A DNA stretch of 64,000 nucleotides from Anaeromyxobacter sp. Lineage in GTDB: Bacteria > Myxococcota > Myxococcia > Myxococcales > Anaeromyxobacteraceae. The stretch's first letter is position 1. Each line of letters opens with the position of its first letter. This document shows positions 33,001-42,000 of this stretch, one piece after another. Position numbers: made by a program. The DNA lies in the NCBI GenBank assembly GCA_049840735.1, contig JASGJN010000007.1:128001-192000 (forward strand). The letters run 5' to 3'.

Positions 33001-36000
33001 TACGACAACACCACCAACCAGGTGAGCGGCGGCCGGGTAACGTTCAGCGCCGGGCCGAACGGCGTGATCCTGATCGAGGCGGCGAACTAGCCGCGGGGTG
33101 GAGCTTCGCCCGGGCCGGCTGCGGATGGCCGGCCCGGGCGCCTACGGCCCACGGGCCTCGTGCGCGTCCAGCTGCTTCCTCAGCCCCTCGCACGGATCCT
33201 CGCGCTCCGCCGCCGGCGTGAAGACCACGTAGTCGTACGGGATGTGCCCCTCCGCCGCCGGGTCCTCGAGCTCCGGCCAGACCTCGCGGAAGGCCACCGA
33301 CACCACCTTCGCGTCCGCCGGCAGGTAGCTGGGCACGCCGCGGTCGCGGCGGGCGTGCTCGGCGCCGGTGATGAGCGCGGCGCCGCGGCCGGCGCCGGCC
33401 TGCAGCAGCGTCGCCGCCAGCTGCGCGTCGCGGGCGCGCTGCGCGGTGACCATGGGCGCCATCATCCGCTCCGGCAGCATCCCGCAGTGCGAGGCGGCCA
33501 TCTCCTCGCGCAGCGCCTGGGCCTGCTCCGGCGCCAGCGGGCCGGCCTGGTCCAGCCGCGCCCGCACCTCGGCCGGGAGCGCGTCCGCCCCCTCGTGCAC
33601 CACCCGGCGCATCAGCCCGCGCGGGAGGTTGGCGGCGACGATGGGCAGCCCCGCCGAGAGCCCGGCCTCGAAGACGGGCCGGTAATGGGCGAAGGGCGGC
33701 CAGCCGCTCTGGTCCCAGGCCACCGCGTCGCGCAGCCCCTCCGGTGTGGGCGGGCGCGCCGCCAGCGCGGCGTCCACCGCGGGCTGCTGGTCGCGGTCCA
33801 GCATCTCGAAGGCCAGCGCCGGGCGGCGACCGGCGGCGGTCAGGGCGCGCAGCGCCCGGGCCTGCAGCTGGTGGTGGTCGCGGTTGTCGTGCGCCTCGCC
33901 CAGCAGCACCAGGTCGGCCCGGGAGAGGGCCGCGTCCAGGGCGGCCTCCTCCACGAAGCGGCGCCCCTGGACGTCCCAGATCCTGCCCACCAGCGGGTGG
34001 TCCCGGAGGCGGGGGGAGGCCCAGGACACCTCGGCGGCGGGCGCACCCGGGCGCGCGGCGGGGCGGCTGCACCCGGCCGCGAGGGCCAGCGCGGTGAGAG
34101 CCAGGGGGAGCGGGCGGGGGCGGAGGCGCATGCCGGGACTGTAAGACCCGCGCCTGGCCCGCGCCGCTACGGCTCCTTCTTCGGGGCGGGTGCCGGGGCC
34201 GGCGCCGGAGCGGGCGCCGCCGCGGGCATGGACTCCAGCAGCTGCTGCGCCTGGGCCGCCTGTGGGCTCTGCGGGGCCTGGCGGACCACCTGCTCGAAGG
34301 CCTGGCGCGCCGCGGCCACGTCGTTCAGGTCGTTGGAGTAGACGATGCCGAGGTTGAAGACGCTCTGGACGTGGTCCGGGGCGAGCTGGCTGGCCCGCCT
34401 GAAGTTGGCGACGGCCCGGTCGAACTGGCCCAGGTCGCGGAACATCACGCCCTGGTCGGTGAGCACGTCGGGGTTGGCCGGCTGCAGGTCCAGCGCGCGC
34501 TGGTAGGCGTCGATCGACTTCTGCGGCTGGTGGGTGTCGAAGTACAGGTTGCCCAGGTGGACCCAGCCCTGCACGTCCTTGGGGTTCTTGGCCAGGTGCT
34601 GCTCCACGGCCGGGATCTCCTGGAGCAGCTGCATCGACGCCCCCTGCCCGCCGGGCGCGCCGCCGCCCATCCCGGGGGGCGGCATGGACTGGGGCATGGC
34701 CTGCTGCTGCATTCCCTGGGGCGCGTCGCTCTTGAAGAAGCGGCCGTGCTGGCCGACCTGGTAGCCGATGGTGGCGCCGATGAGACCGCCGGCTGCGACA
34801 CCGGCGAGGGCGGCCAGGACGACGTTCTGCGAGGACGAGGTGGGCTGCGGTTTCGGGCTCAACGGGCGCTCCTCCTGTGCGGCGGGAGGAAACCACACGT
34901 CCGGCCGGTGCGCCAGGGGGCCGCAGGTGACGGGGAGGGGGGCAGGCTACCGCGTGCCGTCCGTGCGCAGCATGACCGGCCCCAGCAGCGCCTGCAGGAA
35001 GCGGCCGGACTGCTCCACCAAGGGCTCGGAGAACTGCAGCCCCACGCGGTAGGGCGGCTCGCGGGTGGCCCAGGCCACGGCGGCCTGGCCGCTGGCCTCG
35101 AAGTCGACCCGGTCCGAGCGCAGCCGCACGCGCACGTGGTCGCCGCGGTGCATGGGGAACAGCACCACAGCCCGGCAGCCGCCGGCGCCGACGTCATCGG
35201 TCTCGCACACCTGGAGCTGCCCCGCCGAGGAGACGTCCAGCGGGACGCGCACGTTGAACCGGCGGTAGATGCGCTCGTCTGCGCGGGAGGCCATCGCCGG
35301 CATGATGCGTACACCGGGGAGCCAGCGTCAACGCCGGCCTGCGTGCCACGGCCGCGGGGCGCCCCGGGCGCCGGACGCGCCCGGGACGACCGCCGCGACG
35401 GCGGCTACTTCGTGAACTTGGCGACGCCGCGCTCGACCGCCGCCACCACGTAGGGCCGGACGTCCTGGGGGGAGATGATCCGGTCGAGCGAGCCGACCTT
35501 CAGCGCCCGCTCCACGGTGTGGACGTTGTCGAACTCCTCGGCCACCTCGCCCACCTTCTCCGACTTCACCGCGGTGAGGACCTCGGTGAGCCGCAGCCGG
35601 GCCGCCCCGCCGGCGGCCGCGGCCTTCTCGGCCGCCACCACCCGCGGGTCCTTCCGGGTCCGCGTCTCCACCTCGCGGGCGAAGACCACCGCGGCGGCCG
35701 GCGCGCCGCCGATCACCGAGGCGCGGGCGCCCTCCACCGCGACCACCTCCATGTCCTCGCGCAGCGCCTTGGAGAAGACCACGAAGGCGCCGCCGTGGTA
35801 GCGCGACACCACCACGAAGACCACCGGCCCCTGGAAGTTGACCACCGCGCGCCCGATCTCGGCGCCGTACTCGAGCTGCAGGCGGCGCATCGACTCGGGC
35901 GAGCCGTCGAAGCCGGAGAGGTTGGCCAGCACCACCAGCGGGCGGACGCCGCTGGCGCTGTTGACCGCGCGGGCGATCTTCTTGGACGACTGCGGGAAGA

Positions 36001-39000: not shown

Positions 39001-42000
39001 GGACCACGCCCGCGGTGGGCGACGGCACCACCATCTCCACCTTCATCGACTCGATGCGGGCCACCGGCTCGCCGGCCTCCACCCGCTGCCCGACCTGGAC
39101 CGGGATGCTCACCACCACCGCCGGCATGGGCGAGACCACCAGGCCGGCCGGCTCGCGCGTGAGCGCGTGGGGCACGCCGTCCACCTCGACCAGGATGCGC
39201 AGCCCGTCCACGGTGGAGAGGATGCGGGCCCGGCGCTCGCCGGCCGCCAGCCGCCGCTCGATGGGGCCCACGCGCTCGTACCGGACCTCGACCGCGGCGC
39301 CGCCGGCCGGCGCCACCTTGTAGGTGTCCGGGCCGGTCTGGCGCACGTCCAGGCGGTAGCGCTTGCCGTGGTGGCGCAGCTCGATGGTGCGGCCGGCGGG
39401 GGGGCCGACCCTGGGCCGCCCGCGCCGGGCCTCGGCCAGGAAGCGCTCGCGCTCCAGGTCCAGCTCGGCGTCGTAGGCCTCCAGCGCCGCGGCCACGAGG
39501 GCCACGTCCGGCTTGGGCACCACCAGCCAGTCGCCGGCGGCGGCCAGCCGCGGCAGGAGCCCGATGCCGGCGGTGCCGGCCTTCACCTCGGGGCGCACGC
39601 AGAGCTGCGCCAGCCAGGCCTTGCTGGTGCCGCGGCCGCCCACCAGCACGTCGGCGTCGTCGAGCGCCTGGGCCAGGCGGGCCAGCGCCTCGGCGTGGGT
39701 GGGCGCCTTGGCCAGCAGCGTGGCCACCGGCTCGCCGGGGCCGCACAGGTCGCCCTCCTCGGCCACGATCTCGGCGCGCACGCGCGGATCGTTCGGGATG
39801 CGGACGCGCTCCACGCGGCCGCCGGGGCTGCGGGCCTCGTCCTCCGGGTAGCCGGGCTGGATGCGGGCCGCCACGGCGTAGCCGCCGCCCGTCCCGGGGG
39901 CGCCGGCGGCCGGGCCGCCCGCCATCACCGAGAGCGAGAGGCGGATCAGGTCCACGCCGACCGAGCCCTCCACCGCGGTGCCGGCGTGGGTCACGGCGTC
40001 CACGCCGGCCAGCGAGAGCTGGCCGTCCGGCGCCACCACCACCGACACGGCCGCCACGCCCACCCAGCCCACCGCCTGCGCCGTGCGGCCGCCCAGCGTG
40101 CGGGCCGCCTCCTCGACGTCGGGGGAGAGCCCCATGGGCGGCGCGTAGGACAGGACCACCACCTCGCCGATCCGCAGCGAGGCGTCGGCCAGGCCGATCA
40201 CCCGCAGGCCGCCCTCGCGGTCGCGCGAGACCAGCACCTCCAGCAGGCGCGCCTCGGCGGCGGGCCGGGCGGCGTGCGACACCCCCAGCTCCTTCGCCAG
40301 CGCCGCCACGCGCTCGGGCGTGGAGACCTTGCGCAGCGCCTCGGCGGACGGGCCGAGGACGGTGATGCCCTGCCGTGCGCAGGCCTCGGCCAGCTCGGCG
40401 CGGGCGGGGAGGGGCCCCTCGCCCAGCCAGGCGGCGCCGACCTTGGCGCGGGCCAGGGCGTCGATGAGGGAGGTGGTGGCCTCCACCGCGTCGTCGGCCT
40501 CGCGGACGAACGCCGACTGGCGCTCCCCGGGCCCGTGGATGGCCACCGCCGCGCCCGCGCGGCCCAGCCGCGACAGCTCGCGGACGGCGCGCAGCATCCG
40601 CCGACCGGCTACCCCGCCCCCCAGCACCGCCACCCGACCCAGCACGTGATCCGCCATTCCTCTTCCCACCCTTTCGCAGGCCGCCGGCGCCGGGGCGCGG
40701 GGCCACTCGAAGACTCTTCGGCGCCGCCCGCGTCGTTCGCGGCGGCGCCCGCAGGGAACCGCGCCCGCGCCGCACGGAGGCGGGGCGGGCGCAGCGCGCC
40801 GGGGGCGCGCGGGCACCACAAATCACGTTGGCGCCTGGAGAGGCAAGCGGCGAGAGAGCCCGGTCCGGCGGGGGCTTCGGGGACGACGCGATGCGCCAGC
40901 GGGGCGCGCAGGGGACGTGCAGCGGAGCGCCCCCCGCGCTGCGAACGCACACACAGTGCTGGGCGCGAGGGCGCGCGGCGGCGGGGCGGCGGAGCGCGCG
41001 TCGGGCGGCGCCGGCGCGGAAGGCGGCTGGTGGGGCGGGGTGCGCCCATTCGCCGCGCCCCAGGCACGGGGCGCGGCGGGGCGCTGGCGGTCAGCGCGCG
41101 GAGGCCGAGGCGGCGGGCGGCAGCGGATCCGGCACGCGGTTGGAGACGGCCGGGATGGTCCGCAGATACGCGTAGATGGACTTGAGGTCCTCGTCGGTCA
41201 TGGCCGCGGTGGCGGGGATGGGCATGGGCGGCAGGATGGGCCGGCCGCGGCCCAGGTGGCGGCCGGAGCGGAGCGTGTCCACGAACTGCTGCTCGGTCCA
41301 GCGGCCGAGGCCGGTCTCGGCGTCGGGCGTGAGGTTGGCGGTGAAGCTCACGCCCCAGGGGCCGGCCCAGGCGGTGTTGGTGGCGGCAGCGGTCACCAGC
41401 CACGGGCCGGGCGGCAGGGCCGGCGCGGGCGGCATCTGGAGCGCGGCCGGGTGGCCGGAGAGCCTGCGCGACAGGTCCGGCTCGGGGCCGGTCTGGCCCA
41501 TCTTGAAGGGCGTGTGGCAGTCGTTGCAGCCGCCGATGGTGACGAGGTAGCGGCCGTGGGCGACGCGCGGGTCCTCGCCGGCGGCGCCGGCGCGGGTGGT
41601 GAGGGTGAGCAGCAGGGCCGCGGCTGCGGCGACGGGCAGGATCCACTTCAGACGCTTCATGGGTTCTTCTCCCTGGGAGGTGACCTGGTGGGCGCCGCCG
41701 CGGTGGGACCCTCCCGGATCCACGCGGCGACGAGCTGCTCCGCCTCGGCGTCGGCCTGGCTGCGGCCGAGCGGAGGCATCTGGGTGACGGGATCGGTGGC
41801 CGCCAGCCGGCGGACCAGCACGCTGCGCGCCGGGTCGCCGGGGGCGATCCGCAGCGTGGCCCCGGCGCGCTGGAAGCGGCTGGGCACGCCCACCGCGGTC
41901 TCGCGCGGCGCGCCGGGCGCGGTGTTGGGCGGCGCGCCCACGCGCTGCTCCAGGTCGAGGCCGAGGTCGGAGAGCGGCCCGCGCGCGTTGTGGCAGCCGG

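What a model noticed while it worked through the whole genome (the two positions that open the first line are those of the whole stretch)
35405..40657. Single-chain eukaryote-type acyl-CoA carboxylase with a dead biotin carboxylase domain
g00865 (1750 aa; BC-BCCP-ACC central-CT) has lost about 68 residues of the ATP-grasp B domain (GGGG loop) and the ExNxR catalytic motif of its biotin carboxylase, while the biotin lysine and the carboxyltransferase are well kept. The whole Anaeromyxobacteraceae clade of this enzyme is so, so it is a pseudo-BC multienzyme that must get carboxy-biotin in trans or act as a transcarboxylase/decarboxylase.
Evidence so far: Clean reading frame (21). Of 91 full-length closest homologs (incl. 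named Anaeromyxobacter isolates) 0 have the Gly loop, 0 the ExNxR motif, 87 keep E[SA]MK[VM]E; of 19 longer outgroup homologs 18 keep ExNxR (27, 30, 147). Alignment shows the deletion (28). Identity to an intact homolog: BC 31%, CT 70% (147). Present in 15 of 41 family genomes (190). Two ordinary BC genes exist elsewhere in the genome (30).
(Added by a program. Inside this text positions count along the whole contig: contig position 128,001 is position 1 of the stretch shown here. "Call 12" and the like, gene names such as g00115 and contig names such as C1 are that model's own, and its searches are not shown. The text may have been shortened before it was handed on; [...] marks where a part breaks off. 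The agent that wrote the report below was given it as the finding of a first reader that could run no searches.)

Follow-up and report, generated by a model that had tools for sequence, protein, structure and literature searches.

The report
Carboxylase that lost its ATP engine
A soil-bacterial, eukaryote-style acetyl-CoA carboxylase has deleted the ATP-using part that normally loads CO2 onto its biotin, yet keeps the biotin arm and carboxyl-transfer site under strong selection, a loss repeated in many unrelated bacteria, so it probably moves carboxyl groups by a route not yet described for this enzyme family.

Summary
Observation confirmed. 35405-40657(-) encodes a 1750-aa BC-BT-BCCP-central-CT protein of the SACE_4237 family. 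Its biotin carboxylase (BC) lacks 68 residues (the B domain); eight ATP/bicarbonate positions are kept in 0 of 101 clade members, while the biotin lysine (101/101) and 230 of 246 invariant CT columns are kept, under purifying selection. The stub still folds as BC and is modelled as a homodimer (0.77, best control 0.00; may reflect likeness to solved BC dimers). Best reading (0.42): ATP-independent acyl-CoA:acyl-CoA transcarboxylase (e.g. methylmalonyl-CoA + acetyl-CoA to propionyl-CoA + malonyl-CoA). Rivals: housekeeping BC in trans (0.30), decarboxylase (0.13). No activity is shown. Not found in ten literature searches; this scan noted dead-BC copies earlier on other DNA (e1-1200486, e1-4846179).

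The parts
35405..40657 (-). Whole gene: 1750-aa single-chain pseudoBC-BT-BCCP-ACC central-CT protein
   Evidence: GC3 0.99 in all domains
40658..40666 (-). Purine-rich ribosome-binding site directly before the ATG
   Evidence: sequence; similar GGAG sites before the same start in relatives
40322..40657 (-). Pseudo-BC A domain (res 1-112); the GWGF biotin loop is replaced by GEGP (GPAP in most clade members)
40250..40321 (-). Short linker (res 113-136) standing where the ATP-grasp B domain with the glycine loop was deleted (68 residues)
   Evidence: model
39518..40249 (-). Pseudo-BC C domain (res 137-380): catalytic positions lost, R265 (R338 equivalent) kept, modelled dimer surface
39158..39517 (-). 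BT domain (res 381-500), aligned to yeast and human ACC
   Evidence: 8 of 10 invariant columns kept
38933..39151 (-). BCCP with ESMKVE; biotin lysine K539 (codon 39041-39043)
37118..38860 (-). ACC central region (res 600-1180)
   Evidence: PF08326 E 3e-13; 41 of 52 invariant columns kept
35408..37105 (-). Carboxyltransferase N and C halves (res 1185-1750), both oxyanion-type motifs intact
   Evidence: PF01039 E 5e-34; 230 of 246 invariant columns kept

Best explanation
A biotinylated homodimeric multienzyme that runs only the second half-reaction of an acyl-CoA carboxylase, in both directions, as an ATP-independent acyl-CoA:acyl-CoA transcarboxylase. One carboxylated CoA ester (most simply methylmalonyl-CoA from the host's mutase or PCC) hands its carboxyl to the tethered biotin at the CT site and leaves; a second acyl-CoA (acetyl-CoA) takes it, giving malonyl-CoA. 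No partner protein is needed: the ATP is spent elsewhere (PCC) or not at all (succinyl-CoA route). The dead BC stays as a folded dimerising scaffold that holds BT, BCCP and the central region in place. Shown: loss of BC sites, conservation of BCCP and CT, recurrence, gene context. Modelled: fold and dimer. Inferred: biotinylation, the reaction, its substrates and its direction.
For: CT and BCCP are unchanged wherever BC died: across 17 dead lineages invariant columns kept are BC 54%, CT 98%, BCCP 100%, with no convergent CT change; the carboxybiotin half of CT keeps 117 of 125 invariant columns, whereas the biotin-independent MdcE is weakly conserved there (PMC5534430 passages). Loss is easy and frequent: 13 changes on a 92-row tree built without BC columns, 10 forced by starred branches; 9 changes, 7 forced, in a careful 27-row tree, 0 of 200 bootstrap trees with one origin; one clade rejected, p-AU 7e-8; hosts are Myxococcota, Actinomycetota and Dormibacteraeota by record title, with different BC inventories, which fits a self-sufficient reaction better than a partner recruited each time. 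No conserved neighbour in 29 clade loci (largest shared family 7 of 29); no surplus BC gene (mean BC-C matches 3.6 after subtracting its own in 28 carriers, 4.0 in 31 non-carriers); no second copy of the family in 5 of 5 outside genomes with a dead copy. Hosts already have AccA (88 of 92), so a plain second ACC would be redundant; mutase is in 90 of 92, PccB-like CT in 5 of 5 sister-family genomes, BirA in this genome. The characterised relative takes both acetyl- and propionyl-CoA (PMC6491548). CT runs backward from malonyl-CoA without BC (PMC2831308 passages) and a BC-deleted pyruvate carboxylase still does biotin-dependent CT chemistry (PMC5895798 passages). Dead copies sit directly behind malonyl-CoA consumers: an iterative PKS with HAFH AT (L036, L049, L074, L038, L069 by motif; L062 and L221-L224 by position) or a KAS III fusion (L219, L226). 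Scaffold: AF2 pLDDT 93.9, TM 0.86 to solved BCs; homodimer score 0.77, best of 3 controls 0.00, runs agree in at least 95% of contacts, pLDDT at least 87; calibration 20 of 30 true pairs and 1 of 23 single chains reach the mark.
Against: No assay. Mutase, PCC and AccA are also in the genomes that lack the gene, so they permit the reading but do not single it out. The PKS ortholog is in only 12 of 92 family genomes (10 with the gene) and the KAS III fusion in none, so the consumer in most Anaeromyxobacter carriers is unknown. A transcarboxylase makes no net carboxyl and works near equilibrium. The dimer pass may be from likeness to solved BC dimers; interface conservation is mixed (clade-wide 0.71 vs 0.65, p 0.07; invariant columns 3 of 10 vs 22 of 90, not significant; polar subset and 16 other lineages significant). 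The direct precedent, net transcarboxylation between acyl-CoAs by propionyl-CoA carboxylase (Halenz and Lane, early 1960s), is recalled and was not found.
Confidence: 0.42

Rival explanations
1. Still a carboxylase, but its biotin is loaded in trans by a shared housekeeping BC (AccC or the PCC-type BC), either transiently while the dimer is open or through a pseudoBC-BC heterodimer.
For: Both BCs of this genome are stand-alone subunits that serve separate BCCP proteins; the MCC-beta-like CT on C17 has no BC gene beside it, so BC sharing is likely here. Every genome tested with a dead copy has other BC genes. Yeast ACC opens into elongated forms when the BC dimer parts (PMC5126230 passages), which would expose BCCP. 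Malonyl-CoA consumers next door fit this reading equally.
Against: No dedicated BC travels with the gene; it would have to be recruited anew in each lineage; linkers on both sides of BCCP are not longer in dead copies (medians 78-80 and 126-127 residues in all groups); the pseudo-BC is modelled with its dimer face filled by itself; as a plain ACC it would duplicate AccABCD.
Confidence: 0.3
2. Soluble biotin-dependent malonyl- or methylmalonyl-CoA decarboxylase: CT passes the carboxyl to biotin, which then sheds CO2, perhaps in the opened pseudo-BC pocket.
For: Needs no partner; CT reversal and BC-free biotin-dependent decarboxylation are documented; malonyl-CoA decarboxylases occur among CT relatives (PMC6491548); R265 is kept in 96 of 101 clade members.
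Against: Dead copies are coupled to malonyl-CoA-consuming PKS and KAS III genes; the sodium-pump beta subunit is in 3 of 92 genomes; the R338 equivalent is kept in only 5 of 16 B-less representatives elsewhere; no CT change marks a switch.
Confidence: 0.13
3. Oxaloacetate-driven transcarboxylase: a 5S/pyruvate-carboxyltransferase subunit loads this BCCP in trans.
For: A stand-alone 5S-like gene is in 11 of 43 carriers and 0 of 49 non-carriers (kin are not independent), including this genome (C20).
Against: That operon has its own 12S-like CT and 1.3S-like BCCP; most carriers have only single-chain pyruvate carboxylase, which non-carriers have too.
Confidence: 0.05
4. Not an enzyme any more: a decaying gene, a biotin sink or an acyl-CoA-binding regulator.
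For: BC is relaxed (BC/CT dN ratio median 2.8 in 12 dead pairs, 1.6 in 12 intact pairs) and shrinks further in L222-L224 (1641-1646 aa); several assemblies show frame breaks.
Against: dN/dS for CT 0.04-0.29 and for BC 0.09-0.39 in 12 independent pairs; CT identity within the clade 79-81% against BC 50-56%; catalytic CT motifs and the biotin lysine are invariant.
Confidence: 0.05

Closest known systems
SACE_4237 of Saccharopolyspora erythraea, bacterial homodimeric multidomain acyl-CoA carboxylase (PMC6491548; parts 1-3 of 5 of the text read)
   Same: Single chain of about 200 kDa with BC-BT-BCCP-central-CT order; eukaryote-type CT; biotin lysine.
   Different: SACE_4237 is an active, essential ACC/PCC. 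Here the B domain and the BC catalytic residues are gone, the host has AccABCD, and the gene is patchy (43 of 92 family genomes).
Eukaryotic ACC (yeast 5CSK, human 6G2I; top hits; PMC5126230 passages)
   Same: Collinear BT, BCCP, central and CT matches (E 1e-34); BC fold kept.
   Different: About 500 residues shorter; BC cannot bind ATP by sequence; no known natural eukaryotic form with a dead BC was found in my searches.
Transcarboxylase (methylmalonyl-CoA:pyruvate, 12S/5S/1.3S; recalled, family mentioned in PMC3199775 passages)
   Same: BCCP plus CoA-type CT without a working BC; carboxyl transfer without ATP is what I propose.
   Different: Transcarboxylase uses a second, keto-acid CT (5S) and separate subunits; here there is one CT type in a single chain with a BC remnant.
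Biotin-dependent sodium-pumping decarboxylases (MMCD, GCD, MAD; PMC5534430 passages and recall)
   Same: CT plus biotin carrier with no BC activity.
   Different: No membrane beta subunit with the gene (3 of 92 genomes); large soluble ACC scaffold.

Membership tests
Bacterial multidomain (SACE_4237-type) acyl-CoA carboxylase | Single chain BC-BT-BCCP-ACC central-CT | tested here: met
   nested among intact members on trees built without BC columns
Bacterial multidomain (SACE_4237-type) acyl-CoA carboxylase | Catalytically complete ATP-grasp BC (B domain, Gly loop, E-x-N-x-R, Glu296) | tested here: not met
   roles of Glu296, Glu276/288, Arg338, Asp382 from PMC11077971 passages, B-domain Gly loop from PMC12550680 passages
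Bacterial multidomain (SACE_4237-type) acyl-CoA carboxylase | Biotin-accepting lysine in E-x-M-K-x-E | tested here: met
   K539 101 of 101; BirA in genome; biotinylation itself not testable
Bacterial multidomain (SACE_4237-type) acyl-CoA carboxylase | Intact CT active-site motifs | tested here: met
Bacterial multidomain (SACE_4237-type) acyl-CoA carboxylase | Homodimer | tested here: inconclusive
   pseudo-BC homodimer model 0.77 vs best control 0.00; may be likeness to solved BC dimers; full-length dimer not modelled
Bacterial multidomain (SACE_4237-type) acyl-CoA carboxylase | ATP-dependent carboxylation of acetyl-/propionyl-CoA | not testable with these tools
   no assay; predicted absent
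Transcarboxylase (12S/5S/1.3S) | Dedicated keto-acid carboxyltransferase (5S) partner | tested here: not met
   stand-alone 5S in 11 of 43 carriers only, with its own CT and BCCP
Sodium-pumping biotin decarboxylases | Membrane beta subunit (PF03977) | tested here: not met
   3 of 92 genomes

The most novel reading that the evidence does not exclude
A widespread, repeatedly evolved class of natural single-chain acyl-CoA:acyl-CoA transcarboxylases: ACC-shaped pseudo-BC multienzymes that make malonyl-CoA or other extender units without ATP by swapping a carboxyl between two CoA esters at one CT site, a reaction not assigned as the physiological job of any enzyme I could find.
Probability: 0.4. 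Interest if true: 0.85.

Novelty: new variant of a known kind. Interest (0 to 1): 0.7.

Why it matters
Biotin carboxylase is regarded as the defining, indispensable half of carboxylases (PMC3199775 passages). A family in which it dies again and again (25 of 60 deep representatives with an A domain are B-less or eroded; biased upward because dead copies diverge faster) while BCCP and CT stay frozen means an unexplained carboxyl source. If the transcarboxylase reading holds, it is a new physiological reaction and an ATP-free way to interconvert malonyl- and methylmalonyl-CoA pools, of use for polyketide and fatty-acid engineering; if BC works in trans, it is a new holoenzyme arrangement. It also means automatic annotation as acetyl-CoA carboxylase is wrong for many genomes. 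Cultured Anaeromyxobacter strains carry the gene (names), so one protein and one LC-MS assay decide it.

Tried and rejected
Sequencing artefact or strain pseudogene: rejected (clean frame, same deletion in 101 proteins, purifying selection). One origin spread sideways: rejected on non-BC columns; rows for searches were picked after seeing the first tree, and swapping of a BC-less module cannot be fully excluded. Conserved operon partner in the family: none (which stopped before drawing maps). Shared upstream motif: none. Sodium-pump decarboxylase, dedicated BC, KAS III fusion as family-wide partner (only FabH-level matches near 30%), replacement of AccA: not supported. Met-to-Val after the biotin lysine as a mark of BC loss: fixed in this clade (98 of 101) but not general (13 of 16 B-less representatives keep Met). 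Longer BCCP linkers: no. Single-sequence fold of residues 1-576: unusable, pLDDT 38.9. Expression: one metatranscriptome run gave only short contigs on a relative's gene, which does not show transcription. Paper passages in PMC7835884 and PMC12710033 gave nothing on acyl-CoA transcarboxylation. A pseudoBC-AccC heterodimer was not modelled (one job only). Supplements were not consulted.
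Full report
Observation. The frame 35405-40657 on the minus strand is open for 1750 codons from an ATG with a good ribosome site, and relatives start at the same place. Pfam finds a weak BC N-terminal match, no ATP-grasp core (CPSase_L_D2), a sub-threshold BC C-terminal match, then BCCP, ACC central and CT. The best solved relatives are yeast and human ACC. The genome is 74% GC and the nearest named homologs are Anaeromyxobacter; the family label rests on those names, since genome handles carry none.

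What is lost. Aligned with intact homologs, the protein jumps from the end of the A domain to the C domain: 38 residues against 106 between two anchors, 68 in three pairwise alignments. I aligned 166 full-length proteins, dropped 4 frameshifted or truncated rows, set aside 10 eroded outsiders, and compared 101 clade members with 51 intact ones (the intact set was defined by removing eroded rows, so its perfect scores are partly circular). Positions matching E. coli K159, G165, H209, K238, N290, R292, Q294 and E296 are kept in 0 of 101; K116 in 1, E288 in 4, E276 in 14, D382 in 28, R338 in 96. The numbering is recalled; roles for Glu296, the two metal glutamates, Arg338 and Asp382 were seen in passages of PMC11077971 and for the B-domain glycine loop in passages of PMC12550680. 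The biotin loop GWGF is also changed.

What is kept. Of columns invariant in intact proteins the clade keeps 24 of 94 in BC, 15 of 16 in BCCP, 41 of 52 in the central region and 230 of 246 in CT. K539 and both CT motifs are near-invariant. In 12 independent pairs dN/dS is 0.09-0.39 for BC and 0.04-0.29 for CT (GC3 is 0.99, so dS is compressed and these are upper bounds). The remnant folds confidently with an alignment (pLDDT 93.9) and matches solved BCs at TM 0.86. A two-copy model scores 0.77 against a best control of 0.00, runs agreeing in at least 95% of contacts, pLDDT at least 87; the mark was reached by 20 of 30 true pairs and 1 of 23 single chains. BC dimers are solved, so the pass may be from likeness. 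Interface conservation is mixed: 0.71 against 0.65 in the clade (p 0.07), 3 of 10 against 22 of 90 invariant columns (not significant), but 0.77 against 0.63 for polar positions (p 0.005, a subset chosen afterwards) and 0.86 against 0.53 in 16 other dead lineages (7 and 75 columns, p 0.003).

It happened many times. Among the 80 loci, B-less copies also occur in an Actinomycetota, an Ilumatobacteraceae and a Dormibacteraeota record, and full-length but eroded ones in Polyangiaceae, Polyangia and Acidimicrobiales records. A profile of the BT-BCCP-central region, blind to BC, returned 150 representatives at 50% identity; of 149 new ones, 60 cover the A domain: 16 are B-less, 2 partly so, 7 eroded, 35 intact, and all dead ones that cover it keep the biotin lysine. 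Dead copies diverge faster, so 25 of 60 overstates their share. Trees without BC columns need 13 changes (10 forced by starred branches, 92 rows) or 9 (7 forced, careful model, 27 rows, 0 of 200 bootstrap trees with one origin); a single clade is rejected (p-AU 7e-8). One pair differs by under 0.1 change per column yet one member is intact and the other B-less (P0104, P0129; the latter is a single record). Across 17 dead lineages invariant columns kept are BC 54%, CT 98%, BCCP 100%, with no convergent CT change.

Context. In the family the gene is in 43 of 92 genomes (a floor), absent from whole genera, and solitary. Outside, 28 of 80 loci have a PfaA-like iterative PKS beside it, usually as acyl-CoA dehydrogenase, PKS, carboxylase, PPTase; the AT motif is HAFH (malonyl type, label recalled) beside dead and intact copies alike. 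An order-wide sample (36 of 151 genomes) shows that the window's clade, at 100% support, includes members of two sister families; its earliest branches (L221-L224) lie 5-15 bases behind that PKS, three with BC shrunk further, and two others follow a KAS III fusion. So BC probably died while the gene was still in the PKS operon, and the gene later left it. This genome holds the other three genes on C26 without the carboxylase, but the PKS ortholog is in only 12 of 92 family genomes, 10 of them carriers, and the KAS III fusion in none.

Possible partners. This genome has AccA, AccB, AccC, an AccD-like gene, a PCC-type BC with a separate BT-BCCP, PccB, an MCC-beta-like CT, mutase, BirA, a 5S-12S-1.3S-like operon with frameshifts, and one OadB in a low-GC3 stretch. 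Family-wide: AccA 88 of 92, mutase 90 of 92, OadB 3 of 92, stand-alone 5S in 11 of 43 carriers and 0 of 49 others. Carriers have no surplus BC (3.6 after subtracting their own, against 4.0; counts copied from tables, and the gene's own weak match may not always have been counted). Five outside genomes with dead copies have no second family member but do have other BCs and CTs. One family genome (G035) has two copies; I did not check both.

Mechanism. CT and biotin are still used and BC cannot load the biotin, so the carboxyl must come from a CoA ester through CT itself or from another protein. I favour (0.42) a self-sufficient ping-pong exchange between two CoA esters. It needs no partner, which fits a solitary gene and repeated loss in hosts with different BCs; the intact relative accepts acetyl- and propionyl-CoA (PMC6491548, parts 1-3 of 5 read); CT runs backward without BC (PMC2831308 passages); a BC-deleted pyruvate carboxylase keeps biotin-dependent CT chemistry (PMC5895798 passages); and malonyl-CoA consumers next door point to synthesis. 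The old report of net transcarboxylation by PCC is recalled only. BC in trans (0.30) is close behind: the host BCs are stand-alone, and eukaryotic ACC opens when its BC dimer parts (PMC5126230 passages). Decarboxylase (0.13), 5S-driven transfer (0.05) and a non-catalytic role (0.05) follow. These are not exclusive; a leaky exchange would decarboxylate.

Novelty. The scaffold is the known SACE_4237 family, but the defining ATP-dependent BC was tested and not met, so it should not be filed as an ACC. Ten searches of the open library (listings and abstracts, passages where cited) showed no report of a natural dead-BC form; subscription papers are not covered. Earlier notes of this scan describe the same loss on other DNA (e1-1200486, e1-4846179); I had reached the recurrence and PKS context before that look-up and tested both here. 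Verdict: real, a new variant of a known kind with an open and directly testable mechanism; interest 0.70.

Noticed in passing
G000:C26:134610-145388 (own genome, outside window): Acyl-CoA dehydrogenase, 2535-aa PfaA-like PKS (KS-AT-KS-like-ACPx2-KR-DH) and PPTase in a row, lacking the carboxylase that sits between PKS and PPTase in many other bacteria; product unknown.
   Followed up: partly
G000:C20:601379-605267: 5S-, 12S- and 1.3S-like transcarboxylase operon with frameshifts (probably assembly errors); this genome and its closest relatives have a stand-alone 5S-like gene where most of the family has single-chain pyruvate carboxylase.
   Followed up: partly
G000:C22:934000-948000: Lone OadB (sodium-pump decarboxylase beta) in a stretch with GC3 about 0.65-0.75 against 0.95 elsewhere; foreign island or binning chimera.
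   Followed up: no
G000:C22:801773-802033: Stand-alone small biotin-carrier-like protein with an ESMKME motif and no BC or CT gene beside it.
   Followed up: no
G000:C17:102113-105435: MCC-beta-like CT with an HMG-CoA-lyase-like and an acyl-CoA dehydrogenase gene but no BC or BCCP gene nearby, suggesting a shared alpha subunit.
   Followed up: no
L219:13432-15426 and L226:5410-7365: 664-aa KAS III protein with a long orphan N-terminal domain, coupled to the dead carboxylase in two sister-family genomes; in L219 a pyruvate:ferredoxin oxidoreductase gene follows.
   Followed up: partly
L222-L224: Clade members whose pseudo-BC has shrunk by about 100 more residues (1641-1646 aa), still behind the PKS.
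   Followed up: partly
L044, L065, L031, L076: Full-length family members with single changes at otherwise invariant BC positions (for example Arg to Trp at the R292 equivalent in L044 and L065), possibly early decay.
   Followed up: no
window 41091-44473: Upstream on the same strand: SO2930-like diheme cytochrome c gene and cytochrome-like neighbours; not conserved beside the carboxylase.
   Followed up: no
window 25832-29506: 1224-aa minus-strand ORF with no Pfam or NCBIfam match.
   Followed up: no
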